From the IMG/VR virus record IMGVR_UViG_3300025030_000039, positions 60,878-124,877 of that record: a stretch of 64,000 nucleotides of DNA, one strand, 5' to 3'. Positions 2,165 to 47,730 of the stretch are shown one piece after another. Within the stretch, counting starts at the first letter, position 1. Every line of letters starts with the position of its first letter. The notes under the pieces were generated by a model. It saw only the letters and a program-made list of their open reading frames with translations, did no database searches and was not told where the DNA came from. This DNA is from a virus. The translations under genes were made by a program, and so were the position numbers.

Positions 2165-4108
2165 TTATTTTTTATATTCAAATTTATAGTTACCTGTTCC
2201 AAAACACCTATAACAACCTCTATCATGCATTATATCTACCTCTGTTAAACTTGGATCTGCTCCTTCTTTAATTAATTTATCCTTCCTAAACTTAAACCTA
2301 TTCTCCCTTAAACCATCTACTACCCACCAATAATTCAAACCAGTATGCCCTATATATTTAAAACCTAATTTTATATATAAGTTATCTTGCTCATCAACCG
2401 TCCAATCACAATCGGCATAACTTATTATTCTATTCGGTATATACTCCTTTATAAAATGCTTAAATAAGCGACTAGCTCCACCAATAACTGAAGTATCTAA
2501 TTTATTAGCAAATCTAGTCAACTCATACTCTCCTTCTTTAGCTACTTGATTTAAATTTTTACGTAGTTTACCAAAGGTCATTAATGATACTAACTCATCA
2601 TTATAATATAAACCTAATTTAACAGCTGCATTAACATTACCTTGTAAATGGTTCCTATTTAAAAACTCTCTACTATCACTAGAGGACACCTTTTTAACTA
2701 TACACTTTCTAGCGTATATTTTATTATATGTTAAATTTAAAATTTGTTTTAGTCTCGATTTAACTATTTCTTGCTTATTTAACCAATCATCTTCCCATAT
2801 ATGTATGAGTTTAACTCCTTTTTCTTTAGCTAATGCTGTCTTATTTAAATGATAATCTTTAAGTTTATTGAATTCATTGTGCCAATAAACTCCATTATGT
2901 TCTATTCCAATCTTATTATTTGGTATATAAATATCTATCTCATTACCATTTAAAATAGTTCGATCTTTTTTAGTTTCTATATTTAAATCATTTATAAATA
3001 ATTTAATCTCTTCTTCATTTTTACTTTCAAAAGAATTTGTAGAATTTAAAGGATTACATATTGTACAAATATTAACATTATAATGATGTCTTTGATGTAA
3101 AAGATGTATATTTATATTTTTATAATCTTTGCATTCACTACAATAAAAATCCAATGTTCCATTTTCATATACCTGTTTAATATCTAAATTATTATATCGT
3201 TCTTTTATTTTATTTTTATGTTTTTCAAATATAATTTTTTTAAAATATATACTCTTAAAAATAATTTTGTTTTTGTATCGTTCTAAATTAGTATCCTTAA
3301 TTTTTTCTTGTATATCTTTACACTGTGCTACATTTTCAACTCCATAACGTTCTAAATTAGTATCCTTAATTTTTTCCTTAATATCTTCTCTTTGTAATGT
3401 ATTTTCAACTCTATAACGTTCTAAATTAGTATCCTTAATTTTTTCTTGTATATCTTTACACTGTGCTACATTTTCAACTCCATAACGTTCTAAATTAGTT
3501 TTTTTAATTTTTTCTTGTACATCTTTTCTTTGTATAGCATGCTCTACTCCATATAGTTCCAAATTATTTTTAATAATCTTATCTTTTATATCTTTATATT
3601 GTAAACTACATTCAACTCCATATTTTTTAAAATTAGTTTCTTTAATTTTTTCCTTAACATCTTTTGCTTGAAAACTATGCTCAACTCCATATCGTTTTAA
3701 AAATGTTTTTTTAATTTTTTCTTTTACAATATTACTTGATCCTGAATTTTCACATCCATATCTTTCTAAATTAGTTTTTTTAATTTTTTCTTGTACATCT
3801 TTTCTTTGTAAAACAGATGTAATTCCTTCATTTTTTAAAAGTCTTTCTTTAGTTTTTATATGTGCACATTTTAAACATGAATATTTATCTGTTAATTTAT
3901 TGGTCTGTGAAAAATATTTATTATATACAACTTTTTTTTCAATACCACAATAATCACATTTAACATTAATTTTAATACCACAGCCGGAATTTAAATTATT
4001 AATATCTAAAATTATTATTGATTTTATTTTAATATCTAAATATAAATTTTTATAAAATCTTATATTATTTGAAGTAATATTAATTTCAACATTTTTATCT
4101 AAAATCAT
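2165..4108 (-). CDS. Homing-endonuclease-like protein of 647 aa. It has an N-terminal Cys-rich zinc-finger-like region, an array of about six tandem 33 aa KIKxTNLERYGVEN repeats, a Vsr/DUF559-like PD-(D/E)xK nuclease-like domain, and a C-terminal domain of unknown function.
   Basis: CDYCG...CLKCAH Cys pairs; repeated EKIKKTNLERYGVE modules; IDIYIPNNKIGIEHNGVYWHNE...KLIHIWEDDW resembles Vsr/DUF559 endonuclease motifs. The ATG overlaps the stop of the upstream polB fragment as ATGA. Confidence 0.55.
   Translation of the reverse strand: MILDKNVEINITSNNIRFYKNLYLDIKIKSIIILDINNLNSGCGIKINVKCDYCGIEKKVVYNKYFSQTNKLTDKYSCLKCAHIKTKERLLKNEGITSVLQRKDVQEKIKKTNLERYGCENSGSSNIVKEKIKKTFLKRYGVEHSFQAKDVKEKIKETNFKKYGVECSLQYKDIKDKIIKNNLELYGVEHAIQRKDVQEKIKKTNLERYGVENVAQCKDIQEKIKDTNLERYRVENTLQREDIKEKIKDTNLERYGVENVAQCKDIQEKIKDTNLERYKNKIIFKSIYFKKIIFEKHKNKIKERYNNLDIKQVYENGTLDFYCSECKDYKNINIHLLHQRHHYNVNICTICNPLNSTNSFESKNEEEIKLFINDLNIETKKDRTILNGNEIDIYIPNNKIGIEHNGVYWHNEFNKLKDYHLNKTALAKEKGVKLIHIWEDDWLNKQEIVKSRLKQILNLTYNKIYARKCIVKKVSSSDSREFLNRNHLQGNVNAAVKLGLYYNDELVSLMTFGKLRKNLNQVAKEGEYELTRFANKLDTSVIGGASRLFKHFIKEYIPNRIISYADCDWTVDEQDNLYIKLGFKYIGHTGLNYWWVVDGLRENRFKFRKDKLIKEGADPSLTEVDIMHDRGCYRCFGTGNYKFEYKK
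3240..3830 (-). repeat. Tandem 99 nt coding repeats, about six copies, some nearly identical (for example 3296..3350 versus 3435..3500).
   Basis: Direct sequence repetition seen in the DNA, for example ttttttcttgtatatctttacactgtgctacattttcaactccataacgttctaaattagt twice. It encodes the 33 aa repeat array of the 647 aa protein. Confidence 0.7.
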
Positions 4109-5523
4109 GCACTTTTTCTTTTTTCTAATATATGTTTAATTTCATCTGCTTCCATTTCATATTTAAACATTTCTTTTTTATATTCTTTTCTTTGACTATA
4201 AAGTCTATTCAATATACCTTTTAATATTGAATCTTTTGTACTATATACACACCCATTAACTGCTACAATTCTATCATCTTGTTTATATTCATTTCTTACA
4301 TCAGGATCAACTTTCATTATAAATGAATCAGGAGATACATTCATCTGTCTCATAATCGAAGGATAAAGTGATGCAAAATCAAAGCAAGCTACTGCTTTAT
4401 GACGTCCTGTAATTGGTTTTTTAACATAAGCACCTTCATATTGTTCATCTTTATTTTCTTTTCTAATATTAAAATCTGAGGCTAATATTTTGTTATCTTT
4501 TAAAAATTCTCTTGCTAATAATGATTCAGTAATTGAAACTGGTGAATCAGCTTTATAAATACTAATTTTACATAGATTAGCTAATGTTAAAACTATTTCC
4601 ATTGTTTTAAGTTTTTCATGAATTAGCATTACTAATAATGTATCAACTGCAGTATAAAATACATATTTTTCAAAATCTTTTTCTAATAGATCTTTTAAAC
4701 TTCCATCGTAACTAATTTTCTTTAAACCTACTACTACCTCTGCTACCGTATTTAATTTAAAATTTTCTTTGACATCTACACTTCTATCCCATGCTTTATA
4801 AAGATCCATATAGTCCATTATTCCAACATGTAGTGGAATATCATTATTTTGATTATTTAATTTTCCGCTTGGTGATGCTATAGAAGGATCAATTCCTAAT
4901 CGACGAGCTCTATTTATAATATATTTCCAATCATAACCAATTACATTCCAACCACTCATCATTGGTATTTTTTTCTGTACTATTTCACTTAAAAAAGTAT
5001 ACAGCATGTCATATTCTGTATCAAACTTTTTATAAATAAAGGTAAATTTTTTACCAGTTTGTTCAAAGTATTTATCTATACTAGATTGAACATTAGCAAT
5101 ACTTTTTGCAGGCAAATTCAAATGTGAAAATACGATTACTTGATTTTTAGGAGTTGTAAAAGTAATTGTAGTAATTTTTTCTTTTGCAGAATCTGCTTCT
5201 GGAAATCCATCAACAATTTCAACTTCTATATCAATAAAATAAATATCTGGATAGTGTGTTCCAAAAATTTCATCTTGATCTTCTTTAGATAATCTTTCAA
5301 ATAATTCTGTTATTGAATGTTTATTTAAAAATTTTGAAGTATATTTTTTAACAGCACGTCCATCCCAATTTGTAAACTTCTTATCTTTTGATTTATCACT
5401 TTCACGACAAATCATCCAATTAGATATATTTTTTAATGGTATTGTTTTAAATGAAACTTTTCCTTCACTATTATAATAAGATATAATTAATGAATTACCT
5501 TCATTCTCAATGTCTAATAGCAT
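4105..5523 (-). CDS. Family B DNA polymerase, N-terminal fragment of 472 aa carrying the exonuclease region and polymerase motif A. It is truncated before motif B.
   Basis: FIDIEV contains the Exo I DxE motif. CFDFASLYPSIM is the motif A DxxSLYPS. KGILNRLYSQRKEYKKEM corresponds to the GILPxILExLLxARKxxKxEL linker that precedes motif B in pol delta-type enzymes. The ORF then stops; no KxxxNSxYG or YGDTDS motif follows. Confidence 0.8.
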   Translation of the reverse strand: MLLDIENEGNSLIISYYNSEGKVSFKTIPLKNISNWMICRESDKSKDKKFTNWDGRAVKKYTSKFLNKHSITELFERLSKEDQDEIFGTHYPDIYFIDIEVEIVDGFPEADSAKEKITTITFTTPKNQVIVFSHLNLPAKSIANVQSSIDKYFEQTGKKFTFIYKKFDTEYDMLYTFLSEIVQKKIPMMSGWNVIGYDWKYIINRARRLGIDPSIASPSGKLNNQNNDIPLHVGIMDYMDLYKAWDRSVDVKENFKLNTVAEVVVGLKKISYDGSLKDLLEKDFEKYVFYTAVDTLLVMLIHEKLKTMEIVLTLANLCKISIYKADSPVSITESLLAREFLKDNKILASDFNIRKENKDEQYEGAYVKKPITGRHKAVACFDFASLYPSIMRQMNVSPDSFIMKVDPDVRNEYKQDDRIVAVNGCVYSTKDSILKGILNRLYSQRKEYKKEMFKYEMEADEIKHILEKRKSA

Positions 5524-6395: not shown

Positions 6396-6860
6396 TTAAC
6401 CTTCAAGATTTTGTGAAGCATTAATATCTCCAATATAAGCTTCTACATCATCATCTGTCAATTCAGCTTGTTTACCGTTTTCTAATTGTACTAAATATTT
6501 TCCTGTATCTTCACTCCATGAAATAATATCGCCTACTAATCCATCAGCTTTACATTTAACTTTAGATCCAGGTATTAAATGACTTTCACCAACCAATTTT
6601 TGAGTTTTAGCTCCTAATCTATTATTATCATCATTAACTATAACTTCAATTTCAGTTTCATTAAATTGTTGTTGTCCACTATCATCTAAACTAACATTAT
6701 ATTTTTTAATATCTTCACTCCAAGAGTTTAAATATCCTAATTGACCACTAGCTTTTACTTTTATTCTAGTACCTGGTGTTATAACATCGGCTTCTTTAAC
6801 CAAATGCTGATTAGTTTTAACGTCGTTTACAAACTCTTCAAATAATTTTACGTATTCCAT
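6396..6860 (-). CDS. Hypothetical protein with a leader-like N-terminus (MEYVKLFEEFVND) and two tandem copies of a roughly 50 aa small beta-domain.
   Basis: Internal duplication TRIKVKASGQLGYLNSWSEDIKKYNV / SKVKCKADGLVGDIISWSEDTGKYLV. Confidence 0.45.
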   Translation of the reverse strand: MEYVKLFEEFVNDVKTNQHLVKEADVITPGTRIKVKASGQLGYLNSWSEDIKKYNVSLDDSGQQQFNETEIEVIVNDDNNRLGAKTQKLVGESHLIPGSKVKCKADGLVGDIISWSEDTGKYLVQLENGKQAELTDDDVEAYIGDINASQNLEG

Positions 6861-7272: not shown

Positions 7273-7557
7273 TTATTTTGTCATATCTATTCCTAATAAA
7301 TCTTTAGCTAATTTTAATGCATCAGGTTCATCTACTATTCCACTCTTAACTAATTCAGAATAGTATTTAGGATTTTCTGTTAAATGATCGATTGCAACTT
7401 CTTTTGCTGTTGATTTATCACTAGAGTGTTCAGCTTCTACTGCAATTCCAACTTCTAATTCATTTTTATCGATAGTTGATTCATCAGTATCATCACCTTT
7501 ACCTCCAATTAAAACTTGTTCATTAATAAATTCTAAATAAGTTTTTACAAATTCCAT
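7273..7557 (-). CDS. Hypothetical small acidic protein with a leader-like N-terminus (MEFVKTYLEFINEQ).
   Basis: ORF; N-terminal similarity to the MKYILEYEEFLLE leader family. Confidence 0.4.
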   Translation of the reverse strand: MEFVKTYLEFINEQVLIGGKGDDTDESTIDKNELEVGIAVEAEHSSDKSTAKEVAIDHLTENPKYYSELVKSGIVDEPDALKLAKDLLGIDMTK

Positions 7558-7567
7558 ATTATTGTTT

Positions 7568-9529
7568 TTATTTATATATTTCTTTTTTTAATTCATCATA
7601 AAATGAATGTAATACTGTTGGAACCATAACTTTAAATACTTCATAATTATCATCTTTAATTGCAGTTCTAACAACCGATGCACTAATATCTTCATCTGCT
7701 CTTTTAATTTCAAATAACTCAAAATCATTTAGCATATTTAATTCATCTTTATATTTATCTATTTGTATTTTGAATGTTTTTAATCTATCTGTACCTACTC
7801 CCCATTTTAGAGGTTCATATTCAGGACGTAATGAATTAAATATTTTATCTACTGATGCTGAATCAATAATAAATACATTTTCTAGAAACTCATAATTTAA
7901 TTTTAGTGCATCAAACATTCTTAATTGTAATTCTTTATCGAAAGGATTTAAATCTTTATCTTGTGAAGTCTCTTTACCTTTAACTATAAAAATTATAACA
8001 GGGAGTTTATTTGTCATATGTAATTTATTTAAAACTTTTATATGACCTAATGTAAAAGGTTGAAATCTTCCTACAAATATATTTACTTGTTGTTTTCCAT
8101 GTTCTTTATCTTTAATATTTAATGCTTCGAATGTTGAATCTTCTAATTTTTCTATATTACTTTCTAATTTATTTAATTCTTTTTTTAAAAAATCAATAGT
8201 TGGAATATTTATAGGATTACTTTCTATTGTTATAGTTATACTATTTTCAGAAACGTCTTCCTCTTCTTCATATATATTATCATTCATTTCTTTCATAATA
8301 ATATAATCACCAAAAGTTTTAAATGAATCATCAGATTCAGCTTCTGTTGCATCTTTTATTTTTCCTATTATAATATTAATTTCTTTAATAATAGGTTCTG
8401 TTAATACATTGGTAGTCTTTTTTCTCTTTTTTCTTAATGATGATAAAAATATTTTAAATAAATCTTTTAATTTATCTGATGAATTTAAATATTCTTTTGT
8501 CTTTTGATTTTTAATTAATTCAATATTTAAATCAAATTCTTTCTTTTTTGCAAAACTTGGAGTTTCAAAATCTATATCTTTGTATTTATCTATATTTTTA
8601 TTAACATACTTATTAAATATATCACAAATAATTTCAATATATCTTTCATCAGGTTTAATAGATAAAATGCCAACAGATAAAACGGATTTATTTCTTTCTA
8701 TAAATTCAATTATATCTAATAATATTATTGAATAAATATCTTTAATAGTTCTAGTATCTTGTACTTTATTTTTCTCTTGTATATTTTTTATAATTGGATC
8801 TATTATTTTTCCAATATATGTTTTATCATTGTGCTCATCAAAAAATTTAAATACAATTGAATCTATAGGTTTAATTAAATCATTATTTAATGTAGTTTTT
8901 TTAAGAGATGGATTTAAAATACTTATAATATATTTAGTAAATGAATCTGTTCCAAATATATCACCTAAAGAATCTTTATCAGTTTTTATAAAATCTTTTA
9001 TTTGATTTTTTTGCTTATCATTTAATACACCTTCAAAAATAATAGGAGGACCTTGTACTTCTAGTTTATTAGCCCATTCATTTAAAATTTTAGAATTATC
9101 TATAACTTTAATTGTTTTATTTTGATTATTTTTTACCAATATATGTGTTAATACTAAATTATTAGTAGGTAAATTATCATAAACAATATTTACTGGACTT
9201 TTATTTACAAAATATTGAAAACTAAATCTCCAATTATCTGGTATTTCTTTTAAAACAGATTTATCAATTTTATTAACAAAATGATTTCTAACAGATTCAT
9301 AATATATCATTAATGTTCTATCTATAATACTTAATGGAATTCTATCATCCCTTTTAAATATATCTATTGGGTCATTAACGATATTTTTTCTATCAGCATC
9401 TATTTTTTGAACATATACTGTAGATCCATCTAAATTTTCACTTATAATCGTATATTTTTCGAGTAATTCTTCAATAAACTTATTACCCTGTTCTTTATAA
9501 ATATCTTTTATTTCTTGTATTCCTGCCAT
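7568..9529 (-). CDS. 653 aa protein. The C-terminal roughly 190 aa form an NMN/NaMN adenylyltransferase-like (HxGH cytidylyltransferase) domain. The N-terminal roughly 450 aa are unassigned.
   Basis: NIFVGRFQPFTLGHIKVL matches the GRFQPFHxGH signature of NadM/NMNAT-type adenylyltransferases. The N-terminal part contains ISENLDGSTVYVQK, weakly reminiscent of the KxDG nucleotidyltransferase motif but lacking the Lys. Confidence 0.55.
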   Translation of the reverse strand: MAGIQEIKDIYKEQGNKFIEELLEKYTIISENLDGSTVYVQKIDADRKNIVNDPIDIFKRDDRIPLSIIDRTLMIYYESVRNHFVNKIDKSVLKEIPDNWRFSFQYFVNKSPVNIVYDNLPTNNLVLTHILVKNNQNKTIKVIDNSKILNEWANKLEVQGPPIIFEGVLNDKQKNQIKDFIKTDKDSLGDIFGTDSFTKYIISILNPSLKKTTLNNDLIKPIDSIVFKFFDEHNDKTYIGKIIDPIIKNIQEKNKVQDTRTIKDIYSIILLDIIEFIERNKSVLSVGILSIKPDERYIEIICDIFNKYVNKNIDKYKDIDFETPSFAKKKEFDLNIELIKNQKTKEYLNSSDKLKDLFKIFLSSLRKKRKKTTNVLTEPIIKEINIIIGKIKDATEAESDDSFKTFGDYIIMKEMNDNIYEEEEDVSENSITITIESNPINIPTIDFLKKELNKLESNIEKLEDSTFEALNIKDKEHGKQQVNIFVGRFQPFTLGHIKVLNKLHMTNKLPVIIFIVKGKETSQDKDLNPFDKELQLRMFDALKLNYEFLENVFIIDSASVDKIFNSLRPEYEPLKWGVGTDRLKTFKIQIDKYKDELNMLNDFELFEIKRADEDISASVVRTAIKDDNYEVFKVMVPTVLHSFYDELKKEIYK

Positions 9530-9560: not shown

Positions 9561-10826
9561 TCAAAAACGAAGCAAACCCATAATTTGGTTTACAGGAGAA
9601 AAGGATCCCGTTAATTTATATCTCTTTGAATTATAAACAAATACAATTCCTTCAGAAGGCATTATTGAATCAAATCCACCTAAAGCTTCTATTTTATTTA
9701 AGTTTAATTGTAATACATCTAATAATCCTTTTCCACCAGTATTTTCTATTTCTTTAATCTTTTTATCTAAATTATCTTTAATAACTTTCACTGTATCATT
9801 AGAATTAACGGATAAAAATCCACTTATATTTTTTAAAACAGTAACACCTAATTCTGTAAAAATACTCTCAAATTTATCTCTTATATTTTGTCTAATATTT
9901 TTAATTGAATCAGATTTTTCTAGCATTTTAATAAATCCTAAATTATTTAGTTCTAATTCTTTTATTGATATAATAGTTCCATTTTTAAAAGCTAAACGTT
10001 TAGCTGCTCGTTCAAACACATCTCCGTCAAAATCAGTTTCATGTTTAGCAATACTATTTAAAATAATTTTTTTCCAAAATTCTATATGCCATTCTTCTAA
10101 TGTAGAATTATCATTCATATCCATTGAATCTCTAATATCATCAATTTTTTTATGAAAATAATTTTGTTTAACAGAAAAATCGTTATGCTTAGAAATATTT
10201 AAATAATTTGGTTCATGAACTTTAAATATGCTATTAATACTTTTATTTACTAAATTTATTACATCAACAATATTTTTAGATATTTTATTATTTTCATCAA
10301 TTGGATTTCCATCAAAATCATAACTTATAAATCCATGCATAATTATTTTAGGTGAATCATATACAATAACATTTGGAGAACTTGGATATATTATTTCAAT
10401 ATTCATAAACTTTTTACCTGTTTCAAATTCAACATCTAATATTGATTGATCTATTTTAGAAAATATTTTATTTAATTCGGTTATAGCTAATGAAAATGCT
10501 TTAGATAATTCTCCTCTATTTTCAAATTTTTGTATTAATTGATCTACTGTTAAAGCATCTTTACCATAATTTTTTAAATGACCTTTATTTCTTGCTGTAA
10601 ATAATTGTCCATGTTTCCATGTTATTGATAAAGCATATCCATCCAATTTTTCAGATATTAATTCTTCTTTATCTAAATATCCTCCAAGTGCTCTATCAAC
10701 TATCGTTTTTAAATCTTTAAATGTTAAACTATAATCTTCAAAAGGATGATTTAAATGTCCGTAACTTCCACCTTCTAAAATTAAATTTTCATTTAAAAAT
10801 TCTTCATAAGATTTTAAAAATTTCAT
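9561..10826 (-). CDS. RNA ligase, Rnl1-like, 421 aa, with a leader-like N-terminus (MKFLKSYEEFLNENL).
   Basis: Motif I EKLDGYALSI (KxDG); FMNIEIIY resembles motif III; SEGIVFVYNSKRYKLTG resembles motif IV (EGxV) plus the motif V Lys. Confidence 0.6.
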   Translation of the reverse strand: MKFLKSYEEFLNENLILEGGSYGHLNHPFEDYSLTFKDLKTIVDRALGGYLDKEELISEKLDGYALSITWKHGQLFTARNKGHLKNYGKDALTVDQLIQKFENRGELSKAFSLAITELNKIFSKIDQSILDVEFETGKKFMNIEIIYPSSPNVIVYDSPKIIMHGFISYDFDGNPIDENNKISKNIVDVINLVNKSINSIFKVHEPNYLNISKHNDFSVKQNYFHKKIDDIRDSMDMNDNSTLEEWHIEFWKKIILNSIAKHETDFDGDVFERAAKRLAFKNGTIISIKELELNNLGFIKMLEKSDSIKNIRQNIRDKFESIFTELGVTVLKNISGFLSVNSNDTVKVIKDNLDKKIKEIENTGGKGLLDVLQLNLNKIEALGGFDSIMPSEGIVFVYNSKRYKLTGSFSPVNQIMGLLRF

Positions 10827-12270: not shown

Positions 12271-12870
12271 TTATATATCACCCGTTCGTATCAAATATTC
12301 CTTAATTATCTCTAATGTAGTTATTGATGGTCTCCAATATAATTTTATTTTACTTTCAATATTATCTAATAATGTATCATAATATTCATTTTTATTATGT
12401 ATTCTATTAGGAGCTGATGATATCCAATATTCTATATCATCAAAATTAAATGTTGATTGTGCACCATATAATATATGAAATTTATTTTCTAATTCTGTAT
12501 AAGCTTTATTAAATTTAATATCTTTTAATCTATTATTTAGTCTAATTAATTCGTCATATAATATTTCTAATGTTTTATCGACATCATGTTGTGTATTATT
12601 ATCTGCAATTGTGTGATACCTCAAAAAATTTCCTATTTTATCCCTATTTATATCAAATGGTATTTTCCAATCCGTATGAATATTAAATCCAATTTTTTTA
12701 CTTACTTCTTTGGGAGCATAATTTTGTTTTAAATCTATAGGAAACTTTCTTCCATTAACCAGCCATTTAAATGTTCCATCTTGTGATTTATTCACAATAT
12801 CTTTAACAAAAGATTCATCACTAATATTTGATTTATTTAAAAATTTTTCATATTCTAATATAAATTTCAT
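12271..12870 (-). CDS. Hypothetical protein with a leader N-terminus (MKFILEYEKFLNK).
   Basis: ORF; member of the conserved N-terminal leader family. Confidence 0.45.
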   Translation of the reverse strand: MKFILEYEKFLNKSNISDESFVKDIVNKSQDGTFKWLVNGRKFPIDLKQNYAPKEVSKKIGFNIHTDWKIPFDINRDKIGNFLRYHTIADNNTQHDVDKTLEILYDELIRLNNRLKDIKFNKAYTELENKFHILYGAQSTFNFDDIEYWISSAPNRIHNKNEYYDTLLDNIESKIKLYWRPSITTLEIIKEYLIRTGDI

Positions 12871-25435: not shown

Positions 25436-26314
25436 TTAAAAATTAGTTGTTTTAAATGATTTTGCTTGTGCTTCTAAATCTTTTATATTATTTCCTTCTG
25501 TTAAAGAATTATTAATATTCGTAGAATAATTTAAAGCTTCTCTATCTTTTTCAATCAATACTTGTTGATCCTTAGTTAATTTATCAGCATCTTTAGCTGA
25601 TAATTTAGGCTTAACACTATCTAATAATTGTTGTAAATTTTTATTTGATTCTGTTAAACTCTTTAAATATTTTTTAAGAGTAATTATTTCTTGATCTTTT
25701 TTAGATGATATAGTATTTTGTTCTACTACAGTTAAACTTAAATCATTAAGTATAGTTTCACTATTATTTTTTAAATTACTATAATCTCTTTTAAGGGTAT
25801 TAGTAGGTATTTCATTAAATGGAAAAAACTTACCTGTGTATAAAACAGACTCATCAGATTCTTCACCATTAGTTGTTAATTTAGATGATATGTAAAAATT
25901 ATTATCTTTAAAAGCTAATATTTTTTTAGATTGATCTTTATTAATCTTGAACAATACTTGTCCATGTTTAGGATCTATTCCATTACTTTCTTTAATATTC
26001 TGAATTTTAACTTCACTGTTATTACTTAAAAAGCTTAAATATAAATCGCCAGTGTTAGTTAAATCTATTGGAATATCTTCTCCATTTTTTTCTTGTACTA
26101 AATTGAATAAAAAATAATCATCAAATGGAGAAATTCCAATATAAGCTTCTCCTTGATAATAATAAGTTTCATTATCACTTAGATTAGCAACTTGTGCTAC
26201 ATTATAATTTAAAGGCTTTTCATTTAAATTAGATAAATTTAAATTACTGTCTTTAGCCATAGCTTGTATATTTGCTAAGGAATTATTTCTTTGTATTTTG
26301 TTTGACAAACTCAT
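25436..26314 (-). CDS. Hypothetical protein, probably structural.
   Basis: ORF within the late module. Confidence 0.35.
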   Translation of the reverse strand: MSLSNKIQRNNSLANIQAMAKDSNLNLSNLNEKPLNYNVAQVANLSDNETYYYQGEAYIGISPFDDYFLFNLVQEKNGEDIPIDLTNTGDLYLSFLSNNSEVKIQNIKESNGIDPKHGQVLFKINKDQSKKILAFKDNNFYISSKLTTNGEESDESVLYTGKFFPFNEIPTNTLKRDYSNLKNNSETILNDLSLTVVEQNTISSKKDQEIITLKKYLKSLTESNKNLQQLLDSVKPKLSAKDADKLTKDQQVLIEKDREALNYSTNINNSLTEGNNIKDLEAQAKSFKTTNF

Positions 26315-27722
26315 TTTTATTTTCCTTTTTAATTTTATCTAGTTTAACTTTTGAAAAACTTACTTTTATATTTACTCTATCTCTATAGACATTTACAAAT
26401 TCTGTTTTAATTTGAATTTTTGAATTATTAAGAGATGTTTCATTTTGGCTTAAAACTGAATTTTCAGAATTAATTTTTTCAATTTTATTATATATGTGTA
26501 CTATTTTAGGTGATACACCCATATTTAATTGTTGCATTTTAGGACCATATTTTTTAACATTAAATGATGTTAAAGTAGATGTTTTTATTATTTGAGTATT
26601 ATCTACTCTATTTATAATTCTTAATGCATAATTAATAGTATATGATACTGCAGAGGATGCATTCATTACAACAGGTCTATATATAACAGGCTTATCCCAA
26701 TATTCTGTTTGTATTAAAGTTTGACGAGTTGTTTCAACAAATTCTGTATCTATTTGTTCCTCTAAAAAAAATTCATGAAACACCATATAATTAGAATTTG
26801 GCTGATTATTTAATGTTGTAATAAAATCTTCAAATATAATACCGTTATATTCACCATATAATTCATAATAATCGCCTGATTCAGATTCTTTTATTTTTGC
26901 TACTAATTGTTCAAATTCATCTTTTTGATTAAATGATACAGAATTATTTTCTCTTACAGAAAAATATGTAAATCCATTTTCCTTTTTAGATTCAAATATT
27001 TCTAATAATTTAATATCTATCATTGTAGACTTTAATAAACCTACACCTAAATTTCTATTAGTTGGAGCTATATCAGTTTGAACGTTTTTAGATGTTAACC
27101 TTGAATTTAATGTATCACTACTAATAGGAGGATTTGCTGTATTAGGGCTTAATAAATAATTTACAGCTGGAATTTTAACCTCAATATATGAAGAATATTC
27201 TTTTTCACCAACTATAAATGGATTTGAATTAAATGTTTGATAACTATCAGTTTTTCTATATACTAACGACATCAAATTAATAACTGCTCCACCTCTTTGT
27301 GTAATAGTAATATTAAAGATATATCCATCTAAGTCACTAAATGTAAAACCTGTTTGTAAATGTATTTTAATTGTATCATACTTTATATTAGTTGTAGTAG
27401 GACTATCAAAATTTTGAACTAAATTTGTAGTCTTAGTTAAATTAGAATCATAATCTATATAATTTATAGGTAAATCCTTATTTAAATAAACATATTTTGA
27501 ATATTTATTATTTACAGGAATTGCACTTCTATCTCTTATATTACCCATGTCAATAGGTGCACTATCACTATTAAAATAATAGTTAGTGTTGGTATATCCA
27601 TTCGATAATATTTCAACTGGATGAGAATCTACTTCATATGATTCTGGGTTAAGAGTATCAGTATAAATATATTCTATTAATATTTGTTTATCTATTTGTA
27701 CATATTTTGAAGATCTAGCCAT
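26283..27722 (-). CDS. Hypothetical protein, probably structural.
   Basis: ORF within the late module. Confidence 0.35.
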   Translation of the reverse strand: MARSSKYVQIDKQILIEYIYTDTLNPESYEVDSHPVEILSNGYTNTNYYFNSDSAPIDMGNIRDRSAIPVNNKYSKYVYLNKDLPINYIDYDSNLTKTTNLVQNFDSPTTTNIKYDTIKIHLQTGFTFSDLDGYIFNITITQRGGAVINLMSLVYRKTDSYQTFNSNPFIVGEKEYSSYIEVKIPAVNYLLSPNTANPPISSDTLNSRLTSKNVQTDIAPTNRNLGVGLLKSTMIDIKLLEIFESKKENGFTYFSVRENNSVSFNQKDEFEQLVAKIKESESGDYYELYGEYNGIIFEDFITTLNNQPNSNYMVFHEFFLEEQIDTEFVETTRQTLIQTEYWDKPVIYRPVVMNASSAVSYTINYALRIINRVDNTQIIKTSTLTSFNVKKYGPKMQQLNMGVSPKIVHIYNKIEKINSENSVLSQNETSLNNSKIQIKTEFVNVYRDRVNIKVSFSKVKLDKIKKENKNEFVKQNTKK

Positions 27723-38900: not shown

Positions 38901-41900
38901 TTATTTACTTCCACTTCTATTAGAAGTACTAGATTCTGAACTTGTTTCAACTATACTTGGAGAAATAGATGATAATGTTTGTCTAACATCATCTAATGCA
39001 GCTTGTATATTTCTAGTTGGTATTTTATCTAGATTTAAATTATCTGATTTATATTTAGCAGAAATTTCTATATCAAATGAAAATATATTTTGATTATAAT
39101 CATATAAGTCAATACCCATTTTTTTAGCATAAATAATATTAGTAACAGTTGCATTTTTTTCGCCTGCAATATTTCCTAATCCTGTACTGCCTTGACCCCA
39201 ATAATCTGTCATTCTAAATTGGAATATAATTGGAATACGAATAGAATTAGTCGAACCAAATTTTAATTCTTTTATAGATATAGCACTTTTTCCATCAACT
39301 ATTAAATCATCATGTGTATTTGAAGCTAAAAATAAATAACAACCACAAGATCTTTTTCCTAATAAATATTGATCATTAGAATCAAAAGATGTTTTAATAG
39401 TTCTATTATATACTATATCAGATATTGTACCACCTGCATTTGTTATATCAATAGCATTTGTTACCGATGCATCATATAAATACAAATTTTGTTTTTTACC
39501 TAATTTAGATGATGCACTTAAAGGTGCAAATCTTGATTGTATAAATAATTGTTTTGCTAAAGTACTCCATGGATCAACAATAACATCAGGTAAAGTAGTT
39601 CCTGTAATAGTGTTATACATTGAAATAAAAGTAGTTTTATTTTTAATATATGGATGTTCTATATGAAGTTCAATAGTATCATCAATAGATGAATCAAAAT
39701 CATTAGCTCTATATGGATCACCAGATGGATTAAAATTAGCACCCCATATAAAATCAGTAGTTAAACTACTTGTACCTAATATAGTTCTTCCATAAGAATA
39801 TTCAGCGTCATTAACATTAGTAATTTTAGTACCTGTTTCAATACCATTCATATCAGGTTGATCATATGAATAAAATATTTCCTCTGATGCAACATCTTTA
39901 TATCTACAATAGATAAATTGTGATTTAACTTGTGATGATTGAAATGGATTTTTAACATTTATTTCTGAATCAACTGTTGTAGGATTAGCTAATACTATTG
40001 GAACTAAATCATATTTTAATTTAGTATTATAAGTATCATCTGTACTTGAATATGAAGGATTACCTTCTATTAAAATACTGTTATTATTATAATATGAATA
40101 AGAAGCTGGAATTATATTTGGAGAAGTTGATGGTTCTGATGCATTAACTTTTCTAGTGTAACTGCCTGGTATTCTAGATATTAATTCTAATGTAGTTGCT
40201 TCAGAATTTTCTAATGTAAGGAAGAATGTTTTGCTCACAATAACTCCTTTTTTAATATCTAAATCTTTAACAATATCAGAATAATATCCAGCAAAGAATT
40301 TATTTAATTGATTTTTCTTAATTAAAGTTTCATTTCCATTTTCATCAATCATTTTAATAACCAAATTACCTTTAGCTTTCTTAAGTATTTCTTCTAATTG
40401 AGCTAATCTTGTTTCATAAGATACTAATTTATCAAATAATGTAATAGGAGTTTGTTCTGGACTTAAAAATCCTGATGCGATTTTAGTTGAGTCATGCGCA
40501 AAATAATTCTCTTTAGCAGTAAATGAATCAGAAATATGTTGTAATACTCCTTTAGAAGATAAATCTTCTTGCATATTTACTTGTGCTAATTGAATAGTAT
40601 TATTTTCAACTATTTGAGATAAAGCATCTTCATTACCTAAATTATCTGGAAAATCTTTTCTTATTATAGTAGACCAATCAGATTTTGCAGGGTTGCTTGG
40701 CCAGCCCGCTTCACTTACTGTTCTAACTTTTATTTCAATTGATTCACCTTTGCTTATAGGAATATCAATTGTATTAATATTATTTTGATCTCCATCTTCT
40801 GGATTTTCTTCTTTCCAAATATATCTATTTAGTACTTCATCAAATATTCTTTCTCTAATTTTTCCTTCTACTTCAACCCATGGAGACCATGTACCTCTTT
40901 TTTCAACACCACCATCAGAAAAATTATATTGTTTAGTATTAGATAAATTGCCGTCTTTAGATAAATATCTATAAGCATATATAAATTGAATAATAGTTTG
41001 ATCTCCAGTTTCAATAGAGTATTTAGGTTTAGGCATTGGAAAATAACCTCTTAAATGGTATTTTCTTTTTACATCAGTTAAATTTTGATCTTTTACTTTA
41101 GCATCTACTTGTTTAATGAGTGAAGAAAATAATTGAGATTTTGAATTTCTTTCAGTTATTAATTTATTTTGTTCTGTTTTATCAGTTTCTTTTTGCGATG
41201 AATTACCTTTATAATTCTTTGTTGCTATAGTTTCTTTTTTATTAAAAATAGCTTTATCAATTTCTTTAATTTCATTTTCTAATGAAATCTTATCTTTATG
41301 TAAAGTTTCTAATTCTTTAATAGACTTATTAGCAGTAATATGATCATTAATTTGTACAACTTCAAAATTAGTATCTACTAAAATAGGTATATCAGGTGTA
41401 ATAGCTAATATAGATGGTGGTATATTATCTTTAGCCATTGATCTTAAAAATACACTAAAATCAGTTACCTCATTTTTATAATAAGTTTCTAATTTTTGAG
41501 TTTGACCATTAACATTTATTTGTAATTCATTTGTATAAAATGAAGAACCTAATGACCAATTTTTAGCAGGTATTTTAGAATCAGGATCAATTGGTTTTAA
41601 AAATACAACGCAATATTGATCATATCCTATTCCTATTTGAGCTTCAATTGTATCAGCTTTCTCATTAAAGAATATTAAAGTATTTGTACCTATTTGAATA
41701 CTTCTTTGACCTTCTAATAATTCCAGTACAATACTGTTTGTTGATGAATCTATAGAAGTAATTTTGTATTTAGTGTCCAATGGACTAGAATTTACTATAA
41801 GATGATCACCTACTCTTAAACTAACTGTATCGGAAAATTTAGAATCATTATCAGTATAAGTTAATTTATTTAATTTATAAAGTTTTCTTCTTTTAATTAT

Positions 41901-42596
41901 TGTTACACCATTAATAGTTTCTTCTACATTAGTATCATTAATTCTTAATACATTAAATGTTCCGGTATATCTAATTGTTCTTGGTGGAATATCCATTATT
42001 TCATCATCTGGTATATAAGATATTTTCATATCTATAATATCTTTTAAGAATGTTGAATATTGTATATCAGATTTATTTTTATAATTGTTATCATACCATG
42101 TTTTTTTAGTAAGTGTATCTAGATTCAAAATAAATTTTGATACCATTATTTTTTCAATATCATTAGAAACCTGTCCAGTGATATCAAAAGAAACATACAT
42201 AAATGGATTAATAAAATTTTCAAAGAAATAATTATTTTGTATATCGAAATTGGTTATAGTATTTAGTTCCTTTAAATCATTTGCTTCTCTTTTTATATCG
42301 GTAACAAATATCTTTCTGAATGTTCCATCTGGCATTCTTAAATTACTTTGACTAGTACTAATTCCTCCTAATGATTCAATATTATTATTTAATCTTTCAA
42401 TTTCGCCTTTAAGAAAACCAAAACTTGGAATAAATATTCTTTTAATATTATTATTACTATCAACAAGATCAAGAGCAACTGTTTCATTACTAGTAGTAAT
42501 TGCTTCAGTTACTTTGTCGAATGATTCCATAGAATTATTAAATTGCTTTAATAATTCAGGTAACATTGTAGATATACTATTTATGCTTTCTTTCAT
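38901..42596 (-). CDS. Large structural protein of 1231 aa (tail fibre or baseplate).
   Basis: Size and operon context. Confidence 0.5.
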   Translation of the reverse strand: MKESINSISTMLPELLKQFNNSMESFDKVTEAITTSNETVALDLVDSNNNIKRIFIPSFGFLKGEIERLNNNIESLGGISTSQSNLRMPDGTFRKIFVTDIKREANDLKELNTITNFDIQNNYFFENFINPFMYVSFDITGQVSNDIEKIMVSKFILNLDTLTKKTWYDNNYKNKSDIQYSTFLKDIIDMKISYIPDDEIMDIPPRTIRYTGTFNVLRINDTNVEETINGVTIIKRRKLYKLNKLTYTDNDSKFSDTVSLRVGDHLIVNSSPLDTKYKITSIDSSTNSIVLELLEGQRSIQIGTNTLIFFNEKADTIEAQIGIGYDQYCVVFLKPIDPDSKIPAKNWSLGSSFYTNELQINVNGQTQKLETYYKNEVTDFSVFLRSMAKDNIPPSILAITPDIPILVDTNFEVVQINDHITANKSIKELETLHKDKISLENEIKEIDKAIFNKKETIATKNYKGNSSQKETDKTEQNKLITERNSKSQLFSSLIKQVDAKVKDQNLTDVKRKYHLRGYFPMPKPKYSIETGDQTIIQFIYAYRYLSKDGNLSNTKQYNFSDGGVEKRGTWSPWVEVEGKIRERIFDEVLNRYIWKEENPEDGDQNNINTIDIPISKGESIEIKVRTVSEAGWPSNPAKSDWSTIIRKDFPDNLGNEDALSQIVENNTIQLAQVNMQEDLSSKGVLQHISDSFTAKENYFAHDSTKIASGFLSPEQTPITLFDKLVSYETRLAQLEEILKKAKGNLVIKMIDENGNETLIKKNQLNKFFAGYYSDIVKDLDIKKGVIVSKTFFLTLENSEATTLELISRIPGSYTRKVNASEPSTSPNIIPASYSYYNNNSILIEGNPSYSSTDDTYNTKLKYDLVPIVLANPTTVDSEINVKNPFQSSQVKSQFIYCRYKDVASEEIFYSYDQPDMNGIETGTKITNVNDAEYSYGRTILGTSSLTTDFIWGANFNPSGDPYRANDFDSSIDDTIELHIEHPYIKNKTTFISMYNTITGTTLPDVIVDPWSTLAKQLFIQSRFAPLSASSKLGKKQNLYLYDASVTNAIDITNAGGTISDIVYNRTIKTSFDSNDQYLLGKRSCGCYLFLASNTHDDLIVDGKSAISIKELKFGSTNSIRIPIIFQFRMTDYWGQGSTGLGNIAGEKNATVTNIIYAKKMGIDLYDYNQNIFSFDIEISAKYKSDNLNLDKIPTRNIQAALDDVRQTLSSISPSIVETSSESSTSNRSGSK

Positions 42597-42611
42597 TATT
42601 AATAAAATTAA

Positions 42612-43712: not shown

Positions 43713-43716
43713 TTTT

Positions 43717-47716: not shown

Positions 47717-47730
47717 AGTTTATATTTTAT

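What the first reader, a model, noticed from the sequence alone, without database searches (positions are those of the whole stretch)
7568..9529. 653 aa fusion protein with a C-terminal NMN adenylyltransferase-like domain next to the RNA ligase, a possible NAD+ reconstitution or anti-depletion function
The last roughly 190 aa carry the GRFQPFxLGH signature of NadM/NMNAT-type adenylyltransferases. The preceding roughly 450 aa are unassigned; they contain only a degenerate NLDGS nucleotidyltransferase-like motif.

NMNAT activities (NatV, NadM-Nudix) are known from other phages. They are used to rebuild NAD+ after host defence systems that deplete NAD+ (Thoeris, DSR, SIR2/SEFIR types) have fired.

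An NMNAT fused to a large unknown N-terminal domain is not an architecture I recognise. The N-terminal part could supply the missing partner activity, for example a Nampt-, Nudix- or ADPR-processing-like function.
Basis: partly seen in the sequence, partly recalled or inferred. Interest (0 to 1): 0.65.

Follow-up and report, generated by a model that had tools for sequence, protein, structure and literature searches.

The report
Dead RNA-ligase fused to NMNAT-like enzyme
This huge-phage gene encodes an RNA-ligase-shaped domain that has lost its catalytic residues, tethered to an apparently active NMNAT-like adenylyltransferase; the protein belongs to a widespread, uncharacterised phage family that is nearly always encoded next to an intact ligase-like partner, not next to NAD-salvage genes.

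Summary

The architecture is widespread: 374 representatives at 50% clustering. In the window and 4 of 5 other sampled lineages, a ~425-aa ligase-like partner with intact KxDG lies directly upstream, inside the gp32-UvsW-DNA-polymerase replication cluster.

The NAD+ reconstitution reading is not supported as the primary function:
- NMNAT family models are missed by a wide margin.
- A conserved NMNAT Arg is Gln here.
- The same genome has a separate NAD set elsewhere: a cluster ~220 kb away with PncB, a NadM-Nudix-type protein and ADP-ribosylglycohydrolase, plus NadE and an NAD-dependent LigA at other sites.

Best reading (confidence 0.35): an accessory adenylyltransferase of a phage ligase module. 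NMN/NaMN adenylyltransferase activity remains a live rival (0.27).

The parts
7568..9529 (-). Whole ORF, 653 aa, stop codon included: a two-module fusion protein.
   Evidence: ORF; more than 300 full-length homologues. AF2 model, pLDDT 86.8.
8795..9529 (-). Residues 1-245: RNA-ligase-type adenylyltransferase (covalent NTase) fold, catalytically degenerate.
9422..9439 (-). Residues 31-36, E-N-L-D-G-S: remnant of ligase motif I (family consensus E-K-[IL]-x-[GA]-S). The nucleophilic Lys is replaced by Asn32.
   Evidence: the column holds K 64, R 8, Q 6, N 5 of 83, and E31 is invariant. unbiased set: K 109, Q 12, D 9, N 8, M 2, R 1.
9215..9217 (-). Residue Gln105, in the motif III-like block F-S-F-Q-Y (family consensus F-G-F-[DE]-Y): the acidic residue is lost.
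   Evidence: the column holds D 36, E 34, Q 11, K 2. Loss here goes together with loss of the motif I Lys in the window's clade.
8252..8794 (-). Residues 246-426: all-helical domain following the ligase fold, arranged as in Trl1/Rnl1-type ligases.
   Evidence: secondary structure, pLDDT mostly above 85. Trl1 alignments span 205-226 residues.
8126..8251 (-). Residues 427-468: acidic, disordered, length-variable linker. It ends in the conserved [ILV]-x-E468-[AG]-L motif.
   Evidence: pLDDT below 50 for 427-444 and 455-468. E 74/83, A or G 73/83, L 74/83; the motif is present in 71 of 81 members against a 16% background.
7571..8125 (-). Residues 469-653: HIGH-superfamily alpha-phosphate nucleotidyltransferase, NMNAT-like, with its catalytic motifs intact.
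8042..8071 (-). Residues 487-496, G-R-F-Q-P-F-T-L-G-H: (T/H)xGH nucleotide-binding motif in the NadM/archaeal-NMNAT sequence context.
   Evidence: aligned with GRFQPFHxGH of 2qjo, 2qjt and 1f9a. T 80, H 3 at position 493; H496 in 82 of 83.
7667..7687 (-). Residues 615-621, I-S-A-S-V-V-R: the second (ISxTxxR-type) nucleotide-binding motif.
   Evidence: I 75, S 80, A 78, T/S 82, V 81, R 81 of 83; this stretch also gives the short Citrate_ly_lig hit (23.7 bits).
7925..7948 (-). Residues 528-535, N-P-F-D-K-E-L-Q: counterpart of the NMNAT motif N-P-[FW]-x-x-x-[EQ]-R, with Gln535 in place of the Arg.
   Evidence: alignments to 2qjo, 2qjt and 1f9a. Q in 79 of 83, P529 in 81 of 83.
9561..10826 (-). 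Conserved partner gene, 421 aa: ligase-like protein with intact E-K-L-D-G (K60), E144, E392-G393 and K404.
10773..10826 (-). Partner residues 1-18, MKFLKSYEEFLNENLILE: a leader resembling the T4 capsid-targeting sequence. It ends in L-I-L-E directly before the conserved GG.
   Evidence: leader family; the T4 CTS is MKTYQEFIAE (PMC8442874); h-x-E|GG is conserved at the end of variable extensions in partner homologues.

Best explanation
The protein is the accessory subunit of a conserved phage ligase module.

Shown:
- It has two modules joined by a roughly 40-residue disordered acidic linker.
- Module 1 (residues 1-426) has the fold of an ATP-dependent RNA ligase adenylyltransferase domain plus a helical domain. 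In this phage it lacks the lysine that forms the ligase-AMP intermediate (Asn32) and the motif III acidic residue (Gln105), so it cannot act as a conventional ligase.
- Module 2 (residues 469-653) is a HIGH-superfamily nucleotidyltransferase descended from the NadM/archaeal NMNAT lineage. Both of its nucleotide-binding motifs are intact, so it is probably catalytically active.
- The gene sits directly downstream of a ligase-like partner with all catalytic motifs intact. The pair is conserved inside the replication/recombination cluster of many T4-like and huge phages.

Inferred:
- Module 1 now serves as a binding module, either for a nucleic-acid end or nick, or for the partner, or for an adenylate. 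Its adenosine-pocket residue Glu31 is nearly invariant even though the Lys is not.
- Module 2 transfers AMP from ATP to a phosphate acceptor held nearby, producing a pyrophosphate-linked adenylate. Candidates are a 5'-adenylylated nucleic-acid end or a dinucleotide AMP donor, which the intact partner, or module 1 in lineages that keep the Lys, uses for end joining.
- The acceptor differs from that of canonical NMNATs, because the conserved acceptor/phosphate-site Arg is Gln throughout the family.
For: Fold:
- AF2 model with pLDDT 86.8.
- Homologue P0063 aligns end-to-end with Pfam RNA_ligase.

Degenerate ligase site:
- Motif I Lys is present in 64 of 83 close homologues and 109 of 141 unbiased representatives.
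- Motif III is acidic in 84 of 150 representatives.
- Both residues are intact in only 67 of 150. Glu31 is present in 139 of 141.
- A stand-alone copy in another huge phage has Asp at the Lys position.

Intact NTase motifs.

Family signature differs from NMNAT: NPFxxxxQ, with Gln535. The same signature is present in the stand-alone orthologues.

Conserved pairing:
- The partner is directly upstream in the window, L004, L022, L023 and L024, always between UvsW/gp32 and the DNA polymerase/RNR genes.
- 88 of the 150 best representatives of module 1 carry the NTase.
- Stand-alone orthologues of the NTase in cultured phages (Xanthomonas X1 at E 5e-26, Stenotrophomonas Bhz51 at 8e-19, cyanophage S-PRM1 at 4e-16) are each immediately preceded by a gene carrying KxDG...EG...K motifs. 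The X1-type family matches the partner profile at hhalign E 0.002.

A dedicated NAD pathway exists elsewhere in the genome, so NAD synthesis does not need this protein.
Against: - No biochemical data exist for any family member.
- The nearest solved folds are all NMN/NaMN adenylyltransferases, and the GRFQPF context is typical of NadM. The simplest chemical guess therefore remains NMN or NaMN as acceptor.
- This phage clearly invests in NAD+: PncB, NadE and an NAD-dependent LigA. PncB makes NaMN, which needs an adenylyltransferase.
- The ligase-like identity of the genes upstream of the stand-alone NTases rests on motifs read by eye and on weak profile scores (E 0.002, 0.11, 0.18, 0.77).
- Homology between module 1 and the partner is only suggestive (hhalign E 0.09).
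- HIGH-family adenylylation of a nucleic-acid 5'-phosphate has no precedent that I know of.
- In the P0063 lineage the partner is absent.
- In the window's clade module 1 has also lost its motif III acidic residue, so module 1 itself is unlikely to seal anything.
Confidence: 0.35

Rival explanations
1. The C-terminal domain is a genuine NMN or NaMN adenylyltransferase that supplies NAD+. It could complete the phage's PncB -> NaMN -> NaAD -> NadE route, or feed the phage's NAD-dependent DNA ligase or an anti-depletion response. The ligase-like module would merely localise or regulate it.
For: - The top structural neighbours are NMNAT, NadM, NadD and NadR, and the best PDB sequence hits are NMNATs.
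- The GRFQPF(T/H)xGH, NPF and ISxTxxR motifs are shared.
- The genome encodes PncB, NadE, ADP-ribosylglycohydrolase and an NAD-dependent LigA, so NAD+ matters to this phage.
- The target is the only ORF with a canonical G.F.P.[HT].GH motif.
- Phage NMNATs that restore NAD+ are established as NARP2 (bioRxiv 10.1101/2024.02.11.579819) and NARP3 (PMC13464706).
Against: - Scores of 14-25 bits against cutoffs of 127-449 bits for every NMNAT/NadM model.
- The Arg of NPFxxxER is Gln in 79 of 83 members.
- The genome has its own NadM-architecture protein (NMNAT-like + Nudix, Arg retained) two genes from PncB.
- The target lies about 220 kb from all NAD genes.
- The family's conserved neighbours are ligase-like and replication genes, with no NAD gene among the Pfam hits on record for the flanks of six sampled contigs.
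- In the published survey, phage NMNATs are NadM (+Nudix) or NadR (+kinase), and every NadM phage has NadV (PMC9503650).
Confidence: 0.27
2. The NTase activates a small non-nucleotide molecule rather than acting in NAD or ligation chemistry. The acceptor could be a carboxylate or a phosphate ester, as in citrate lyase ligase, TmcAL, PPAT or FMNAT. The product could be used, for example, for a nucleic-acid or protein modification made together with the neighbouring proteins.
For: - The generic PF01467 and TIGR00125 models are the main family models passed at their cutoffs; the only other is a short Citrate_ly_lig hit that passes its cutoff at 23.7 against 20.9 bits.
- TxGH, rather than HxGH, is the PPAT form of the motif (own knowledge).
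- Long forms carry further domains: a PD-(D/E)xK-like domain, a SAM-lyase-like domain and an unknown 500-aa domain.
Against: - These matches score lower than the NMNATs in both sequence and structure.
- The Citrate_ly_lig hit covers only 41 residues of the shared ISxTxxR region.
- No biosynthetic genes for a candidate small molecule are conserved next to the gene.
Confidence: 0.13
3. The module is a virion-packaged, injected protein set. The partner, and possibly the C-terminal NTase released by cleavage at the conserved h-x-E|[AG] site, would be processed by the prohead protease and delivered with the DNA to act in the first minutes of infection. The chemistry would be whatever the other explanations predict.
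For: - The partner starts with a leader matching the T4 capsid-targeting sequence core K-[ST]-Y-x-E-F-[LI]-x-E.
- 25 ORFs in the genome share the leader.
- Partner homologues in other phages have variable N-terminal extensions ending in [LIVF]-x-E immediately before the conserved GGAxGH.
- The target family has a conserved [ILV]-x-E-[AG]-L at the end of its disordered linker.
- The released fragment would be about 185 aa, similar to the stand-alone NTases of 162-166 aa.
Against: - The target itself lacks the leader.
- The protease-site consensus comes from my own knowledge of T4 gp21 and was not tested for this phage.
- The conserved motif may be structural.
- There is no virion proteome for any relative.
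- The gene lies among replication genes rather than head genes.
Confidence: 0.15
4. The whole protein is a decaying or non-enzymatic relic, for example a structural or chaperone role like the ligase-independent tail-fibre-attachment activity of T4 RnlA.
For: - Loss of ligase catalytic residues.
- T4 RnlA is annotated as 'RNA ligase and tail fiber protein attachment catalyst'.
Against: - The NTase motifs are almost invariant across 83 homologues at 35-46% identity.
- Full-length conservation in hundreds of phages argues for selection on an enzymatic C-terminal domain.
Confidence: 0.05

Closest known systems
Archaeal/NadM-type NMN adenylyltransferases (M. jannaschii MJ0541, PDB 1f9a; NadM-Nudix, PDB 2qjt and 2qjo; phage KVP40 Nmnat of NARP2)
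   Same: - The same GRFQPF-x-x-GH context, the NPF motif and the ISxTxxR motif.
- The expected chemistry is AMP transfer from ATP to a phosphate acceptor.
   Different: - 16-18% identity.
- Fails every curated NMNAT/NadM model by more than 100 bits.
- Gln replaces the conserved Arg of NPFxxxER.
- TxGH instead of HxGH.
- No Nudix domain. It is fused instead to a ligase fold.
- Not encoded beside Nampt/NadV, and the genome has a separate NadM-like protein.
ATP-dependent RNA ligases: T4 Rnl2, T. brucei REL1 and N. gruberi NgrRnl (Pfam PF09414), and fungal Trl1-LIG / T4 Rnl1
   Same: - The family consensus motif I, E-K-[IL]-x-[GA]-S-x-F, resembles Rnl2's E-K-I-H-G-T-N-F (own knowledge).
- A helical domain follows the NTase domain, as in Trl1 and Rnl1.
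   Different: - In this protein the nucleophilic Lys is Asn and the motif III Glu is Gln.
- Across the family these residues are dispensable.
- No Pfam hit for the window protein.
- It carries a second, unrelated nucleotidyltransferase at its C-terminus.
Phage NAD+ reconstitution pathways: NARP2 (Nampt + Nmnat) and NARP3 (PnuC + NadR)
   Same: A phage-encoded NMNAT-like domain, in a phage that clearly manipulates NAD+ metabolism.
   Different: - The defining partners (Nampt, or PnuC plus the NadR kinase domain) are neither fused nor adjacent.
- The genome's PncB, NadM-Nudix-like protein, NadE and ADP-ribosylglycohydrolase form a separate set that fits the salvage role better.
T4 tRNA-repair pair PseT (Pnkp) + RnlA
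   Same: - A phage end-healing and end-sealing logic.
- This genome has a Pnkp-like protein, a PNK3P phosphatase, a canonical Rnl2-type ligase and the ligase-like partner.
   Different: - No detectable sequence homology to RnlA or PseT for the target.
- The module sits in the replication cluster.
- It includes a HIGH-family NTase that the T4 system lacks.
'Cytitidyltransferase' / cytidyltransferase-like proteins of T4-like cyanophages and of Xanthomonas and Stenotrophomonas phages (PHROG 395 and 3041)
   Same: - Orthologous NTase domain (E 4e-16 to 5e-26 against the family profile), with the same NPFxxxxQ and GxDR signatures.
- Also preceded by a gene that looks ligase-like.
   Different: - There the NTase is stand-alone (162-166 aa) or has other flanking regions (373 aa and larger).
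- Here it is fused behind a degenerate ligase module.
- None of these proteins is characterised.

Membership tests
NMN adenylyltransferase (NadM / archaeal type) | HIGH-superfamily Rossmann fold, closest to solved NMNATs | tested here: met
   [not shown]
NMN adenylyltransferase (NadM / archaeal type) | (H/T)xGH and ISxTxxR nucleotide-binding motifs | tested here: met
   GRFQPFTLGH at 487-496 and ISASVVR at 615-621. Both are nearly invariant in 83 homologues.
NMN adenylyltransferase (NadM / archaeal type) | Score at or above the curated cutoff of an NMNAT family model (TIGR01527, NF002243, NF003791 and related models) | tested here: not met
   20.7 against 181.2 bits; 21 against 127; 25.1 against 409.
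NMN adenylyltransferase (NadM / archaeal type) | Conserved Arg of the N-P-[FW]-x-x-x-[EQ]-R motif | tested here: not met
   this motif aligns to N-P-F-D-K-E-L-Q. Gln535 in 79 of 83 members. The genome's own NadM-like protein keeps the Arg (NNPLEFATRK).
NMN adenylyltransferase (NadM / archaeal type) | Nudix fusion and/or a NadV/Nampt partner (PMC9503650: every NadM phage also has NadV) | tested here: not met
   The target has no Nudix domain. PncB and a NadM-Nudix-like protein exist, but about 220 kb away.
NMN adenylyltransferase (NadM / archaeal type) | Catalysis of NMN (or NaMN) + ATP -> NAD (or NaAD) + PPi | not testable with these tools
   Requires an enzyme assay.
ATP-dependent RNA ligase (Rnl2 / Trl1-like covalent nucleotidyltransferase) | Adenylyltransferase-domain fold | tested here: met
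   [not shown]
ATP-dependent RNA ligase (Rnl2 / Trl1-like covalent nucleotidyltransferase) | Motif I lysine nucleophile (KxDG) | tested here: not met
   Asn32 in the window protein. The Lys is absent in 19 of 83 close homologues and 32 of 141 unbiased representatives.
ATP-dependent RNA ligase (Rnl2 / Trl1-like covalent nucleotidyltransferase) | Motif III acidic residue | tested here: not met
   Gln105. The residue is non-acidic in 13 of 83 close homologues and in about 40% of unbiased representatives.
ATP-dependent RNA ligase (Rnl2 / Trl1-like covalent nucleotidyltransferase) | Pfam PF09414 at its gathering score | tested here: not met
   No hit for the window protein. Homologue P0063 scores 24.7 bits against a cutoff of 27.
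NARP2 (phage Nampt + Nmnat NAD+ reconstitution pathway) | Nampt and Nmnat functionally linked in one phage, usually as an operon | tested here: not met
   No Nampt was detected. The NAPRTase-family gene present is a PncB equivalog and lies next to a different NMNAT-like gene.
True cytidylyltransferases (GCT / CCT / ECT) | Closer to CTP-using enzymes than to adenylyltransferases | tested here: not met
   [not shown]

The most novel reading that the evidence does not exclude
The module is a 'split' ligase. The HIGH-family NTase directly adenylylates a nucleic-acid 5'-phosphate, which is chemically an NMN-like acceptor. Alternatively it NAD-caps a 5'-triphosphate RNA by transferring the RNA's terminal AMP onto NMN. 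A lysine-free ligase fold, or the partner, then completes joining. This would bypass the universal ligase-AMP intermediate, and the proteins may be delivered from the capsid with the DNA.
Probability: 0.1. Interest if true: 0.85.

Novelty: new variant of a known kind. Interest (0 to 1): 0.55.

Why it matters
Both folds are textbook enzymes, but this combination has not been described in anything I could search. It consists of a ligase fold that repeatedly loses its nucleophile, tied to an NMNAT-derived adenylyltransferase with an altered acceptor site, and paired with an intact ligase-like partner. It is conserved in hundreds of T4-like, cyanophage-like and huge phages, including cultured ones.

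If the NTase works on or for the ligase module, that would define a new accessory chemistry for nucleic-acid joining in abundant aquatic phages. It would also explain the long-unassigned cyanophage 'cytitidyltransferase' genes.

If instead the domain is a true NMNAT or NaMNAT, it would extend phage NAD+ pathways to a new architecture that current NadM/NadR-based surveys miss.

Either result is directly testable with two purified proteins and with cultured relatives.

Tried and rejected
- Direct BLASTP of the N-terminal 450 aa against the neighbour found only the motif I match (E 0.37).
- Family profile against partner profile by hhalign was colinear over motifs I-IIIa but weak (E 0.09), so paralogy is unproven.
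- PDB sequence searches with the partner profile and the X1-type profile gave only noise.
- Pfam and PHROG gave nothing useful for the partner, the third component or the X1/Bhz51 cassette genes.
- PADLOC gave nothing for any component.
- hhalign of the partner profile against single X1, Bhz51 and S-PRM1 upstream proteins was not significant (E 0.18, 0.77, 0.11). Only the profile-profile test reached E 0.002, and that over 42 columns.
- BLAST and jackhmmer did not link the X1 cassette's first two genes to the L025 flanking genes. My impression that these are Pol-beta-NTase-like and PD-(D/E)xK-like rests on motifs read by eye.
- My first regex screen for canonical ligases was too strict and returned nothing, missing even known ligase-like ORFs. 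I replaced it with homology searches using T4 gp30 and E. coli LigA.
- My first NTase regex misclassified architectures. I replaced it with a domain HMM.
- The first genome assembly had a 3-nt offset error, corrected.
- The C-terminal extensions of the long forms have no homologue in the window or genome.
- Literature searches for an RNA ligase + cytidylyltransferase fusion, for 'cytitidyltransferase', and for ligase pseudoenzymes in phages found nothing relevant.
- I rejected the idea that the partner is the phage's replicative DNA ligase, because the genome encodes its own NAD-dependent LigA.
Full report
**1. Observation**

The ORF is real: 7568..9529 on the minus strand, ATG start, 653 aa. 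It is tightly packed between co-directional genes, with gaps of 31 nt and 10 nt. GRFQPFTLGH lies at residues 487-496 and NLDGS at residues 32-36.

The window is identical to LR756500.1, a 462-kb 'uncultured phage' with about 24% G+C. Window position 1 corresponds to record position 258381.

**2. C-terminal module (residues 469-653)**

- Pfam assigns only the generic PF01467 (E 1.8e-7). PHROGs call it 'cytidyltransferase'.
- NMNAT/NadM models of NCBIfam are hit, but at 14-25 bits against cutoffs of 127-449 bits.
- By sequence, the nearest solved proteins are NMNATs: 2qjo, and with the family profile 1f9a at 7e-7.
- The AF2 model built on 83 homologues has pLDDT 86.8.

- Both nucleotide-binding motifs are nearly invariant in the family: (T/H)xGH has T 80 and H 3 of 83, and the second motif is ISA[TS]xVR. 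An active enzyme is therefore likely.
- The NMNAT motif N-P-[FW]-x-x-x-[EQ]-R aligns with N-P-F-D-K-E-L-Q. Gln535 replaces the Arg in 79 of 83 members.
- The family has its own strongly conserved block, R568-P-x-Y-E-P-x-L-W-G-x-G-x-D-R.

I conclude that the domain descends from the NadM/archaeal-NMNAT lineage and that its acceptor specificity is unresolved.

**3. N-terminal module (residues 1-426)**

- No sequence library assigns it.
- One homologue, P0063, aligns end-to-end with Pfam RNA_ligase just below the cutoff (24.7 against 27 bits).
- The family consensus for motif I is E-K-[IL]-x-[GA]-S-x-F. The window protein has Asn at the Lys position.

Among 83 close homologues the motif I column holds K 64, R 8, Q 6, N 5. 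In the window's clade this loss goes together with Glu/Asp to Gln at the motif III-like F-G-F-[DE]-Y block.

An exhaustive HMMER search with this module alone found 374 representatives at 50% clustering, 289 of them at E 1e-10 or better. Among the best 150:

- The Lys is missing in at least 32.
- The motif III residue is acidic in only 84.
- Both residues are intact in only 67.
- The preceding Glu31 is present in 139 of 141.

A 642-kb huge phage encodes the module alone (446 aa) with Asp at the Lys position.

This module is therefore a ligase fold in which the covalent-catalysis residues are not under consistent selection. In the window protein it cannot be a conventional ligase.

A disordered acidic linker (residues 427-468, pLDDT below 50) joins the two modules.

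**4. Architecture spread**

Of the best 150 representatives of the N-terminal module:

- 44 are N-module + NTase.
- 44 add a further C-terminal extension.
- 62 lack the NTase. Some of these may be fragments.

The extensions include:

- A PD-(D/E)xK-looking domain (G-x-G-x-G-E ... D ... E-V-K). In other phages it is encoded as the gene immediately downstream.
- A SAM-lyase-like domain, PF23780.
- An unassigned domain of about 500 aa.

BFVD contains the same full architecture (A0A6J5NWC5, E 2.5e-50) and the N-module alone.

**5. Context**

In the window and in 4 of 5 other sampled lineages, a protein of 420-430 aa is encoded immediately upstream (E 7e-76 pairwise; 1e-130 to 1e-167 against its profile). 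The surrounding gene order is conserved: gp32, UvsW-type helicase, partner, fusion gene, DUF3008, dUTPase or ThyA, DNA polymerase B, RNR.

- The partner's family keeps E59-K60-x-D62-G63, E144, E392-G393 and K404 invariant or nearly so.
- The partner is therefore the catalytically credible ligase of the pair.

Stand-alone orthologues of the NTase exist in cultured phages: Xanthomonas X1 (E 5e-26), Stenotrophomonas Bhz51 (8e-19) and cyanophage S-PRM1 gp067 (4e-16). Each is directly preceded by a gene carrying K-x-D-G ... E-G-[VF]-V ... K motifs. Statistical support for calling those genes relatives of the partner is weak: profile-profile E 0.002, and single sequences E 0.11-0.77. I treat this as a lead that agrees with the strong synteny evidence.

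**6.

I fetched and assembled the whole 462-kb genome.

A Nampt-like gene was not found.

A separate NAD/ADP-ribose gene set exists (all record coordinates):

| Record position | Protein | Evidence |
|---|---|---|
| 44896-46083 | PncB | TIGR01514, 419.9 bits against a 269.55 cutoff |
| 47604-48515 | 303-aa NMNAT-like + Nudix protein with NadM architecture; the NPxxxxxR Arg is kept | Nudix PF00293, 4.8e-10 |
| 43415-44215 | ADP-ribosylglycohydrolase | 8e-35 |
| 77854-78714 | NadE | PF02540, 6e-35 |
| 358389-359237 and 356125-357315 | NAD-dependent LigA, split into two ORFs | PF01653 4e-33; PF03120 1e-23 |

The genome also has:

- A canonical Rnl2-type RNA ligase (PF09414, 98.5 bits).
- A Pnkp-like protein.
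- No T4 gp30-type DNA ligase.

The published survey of viral NAD systems lists phage NMNATs only as NadM (+Nudix) or NadR (+kinase), and says every NadM phage also has NadV (PMC9503650). NARP2 and NARP3 are defined by Nampt+Nmnat and PnuC+NadR respectively.

The phage therefore does invest in NAD+, but the canonical pathway is complete without the target, and the target is not linked to it.

**7. Mechanism**

Shown: the two folds, the lost ligase residues, the intact NTase motifs, the altered NMNAT signature and the conserved pairing with an intact ligase-like partner in a replication cluster.

Inferred: the dead ligase fold acts as a binding module for a nucleic-acid end or nick, for the partner, or for an adenylate. 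The tethered NTase makes a pyrophosphate-linked adenylate that serves the joining reaction.

I give this 0.35. The main rival, a real NMN/NaMN adenylyltransferase feeding the phage's NAD+ economy, gets 0.27. It is favoured by the fold and by PncB needing an NaMN adenylyltransferase. It is disfavoured by the family's context, by the Gln535 substitution and by the presence of a dedicated NadM-like gene.

Lesser rivals are activation of a small molecule (0.13) and a non-enzymatic role (0.05). A packaging hypothesis (0.15) is orthogonal to the chemistry.

**8. Packaging lead**

Nine ORFs in the window and 25 in the genome begin with M-K-[YF]-I-x-x-Y-[ED]-[ED]-F-[LI]-x-E. They include the partner and a PNK3P phosphatase, but not the target.

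The T4 capsid-targeting sequence is MKTYQEFIAE (PMC8442874).

In partner homologues from other phages, the N-terminal extensions vary in length and sequence but end in [LIVF]-x-E directly before the conserved GGAxGH.

The target family has a conserved [ILV]-x-E-[AG]-L at the end of its linker.

Both patterns fit a T4-type prohead-protease site. That consensus comes from my own knowledge and was not tested here.

**9. Verdict**

- The domain call is right.
- The NAD+ reconstitution interpretation is only partly supported.
- The guess about the N-terminal function is wrong.

The protein is a new, uncharacterised variant built from two known enzyme folds. It is widespread and readily testable.

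Noticed in passing
window 6396-6860, 7273-7557, 9561-10826, 12271-12870, 55002-55532, 55529-56140, 56196-57197(+), 57297-58313, 58708-59340; genome-wide 25 ORFs of LR756500.1: A shared N-terminal leader, M-[KE]-[YF]-[ILV]-x-x-Y-[ED]-[ED]-F-[LI]-x-E, resembles the T4 capsid-targeting sequence MKTYQEFIAE. It sits on functionally unrelated proteins: the ligase-like partner, a PNK3P phosphatase, an LRR protein, DUF5661 and others. These may be proteins packaged in the head and injected.
   Followed up: partly
partner family: window 10773-10826, and homologues P0124, P0130, P0161, P0171, P0123, P0142, P0146, P0136: The N-terminal extensions are 12-90 aa long and unconserved, but nearly all end in [LIVF]-x-E immediately before the conserved GGAxGHxxHPF(D/E)D. 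This looks like a propeptide removed at a T4-type prohead-protease site.
   Followed up: partly
window 8120-8134 (residues 466-470 of the target): A conserved [ILV]-x-E-[AG]-L motif lies at the end of the otherwise variable, disordered linker. It is present in 71 of 81 family members against a 16% background. It may be a cleavage site that releases an NTase of about 185 aa, or it may be a structural cap.
   Followed up: partly
LR756500.1 record 41226-48515 (L013), 77854-78714 (L014): The NAD/ADP-ribose gene set includes a PIN protein, ADP-ribosylglycohydrolase, ClpP, PncB, a nucleoside-deoxyribosyltransferase-like protein, a metallophosphoesterase and a NadM-architecture NMNAT-like+Nudix protein. 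NadE is encoded about 30 kb away. Together this is a Preiss-Handler-type salvage route rather than the Nampt-based NARP2.
   Followed up: yes
LR756500.1 record 358389-359237 and 356125-357315 (L019): An NAD-dependent LigA-type DNA ligase is split into two ORFs, adenylation domain and OB/Zn domains, about 1 kb apart. The split may be caused by a mobile element, as for other genes of this phage. No T4 gp30-type ligase was found.
   Followed up: partly
LR756500.1 record 25610-26704 (L013) and 114322-115278 (L015); window 58708-59340: A canonical Rnl2-type RNA ligase (PF09414, 98.5 bits) has an HNH-like Cys/His N-terminus. There is also a Pnkp-like kinase-phosphatase and a second PNK3P phosphatase that carries the leader. 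A conventional RNA-repair set therefore exists apart from the module studied.
   Followed up: partly
window 2165-4108 and 59679-60884; window 4105-5523; L001 and L008: Replication and nucleotide-metabolism genes are heavily invaded. DNA polymerase B is truncated at 472 aa and followed by a 647-aa DUF7487 ORF with internal repeats (…NLERYGVE…KD[IV]QEKIK…), which has a paralogue at 59679-60884 (E 1e-22). The RNR large subunit and ThyX carry intein hits.
   Followed up: no
L004:11859-13010, L025:9825-10853; C-terminal extensions of P0036, P0017 and P0045: A third linked component has a PD-(D/E)xK-like signature (G-x-G-x-G-E … G-D-[LV] … [YMV]-E-V-K). It is either fused to the C-terminus of the family protein or encoded just downstream. 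No copy is detectable in LR756500.1.
   Followed up: partly
P0103 residues 675-766: One lineage fuses the family protein to an S-adenosylmethionine-lyase-like domain (PF23780, E 1.5e-11). That domain type is known from phage anti-restriction proteins (own knowledge).
   Followed up: no
L012:2128-5477 (Xanthomonas phage X1), L011:2408-5525 (Stenotrophomonas phage Bhz51), L028:1720-4966 (cyanophage S-PRM1): Cultured phages carry an operon downstream of the replicative helicase that ends with the stand-alone NTase. The NTase is preceded by a ligase-like gene and by one or two unassigned genes of about 300 aa. These phages would serve as experimental models for the module.
   Followed up: partly
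L010:5938-7278 (LR756502.1, 642-kb phage): A stand-alone 446-aa copy of the ligase-like + helical module has motif I E-D-V-Q-G-S (Lys replaced by Asp) and a Lys-rich tail. It lies next to a divergently transcribed gene with a Pol-beta-NTase-like G-S…D-x-D motif, read by eye.
   Followed up: no
window 9572-9593 (minus strand): A terminator-like hairpin with a T-run overlaps the last codons of the partner gene, and an A+T-rich TATATAAT stretch precedes the target's ATG. The two genes may therefore be partly uncoupled in transcription. The scan found 2 such sites against 0.7 expected, so this is weak.
   Followed up: no
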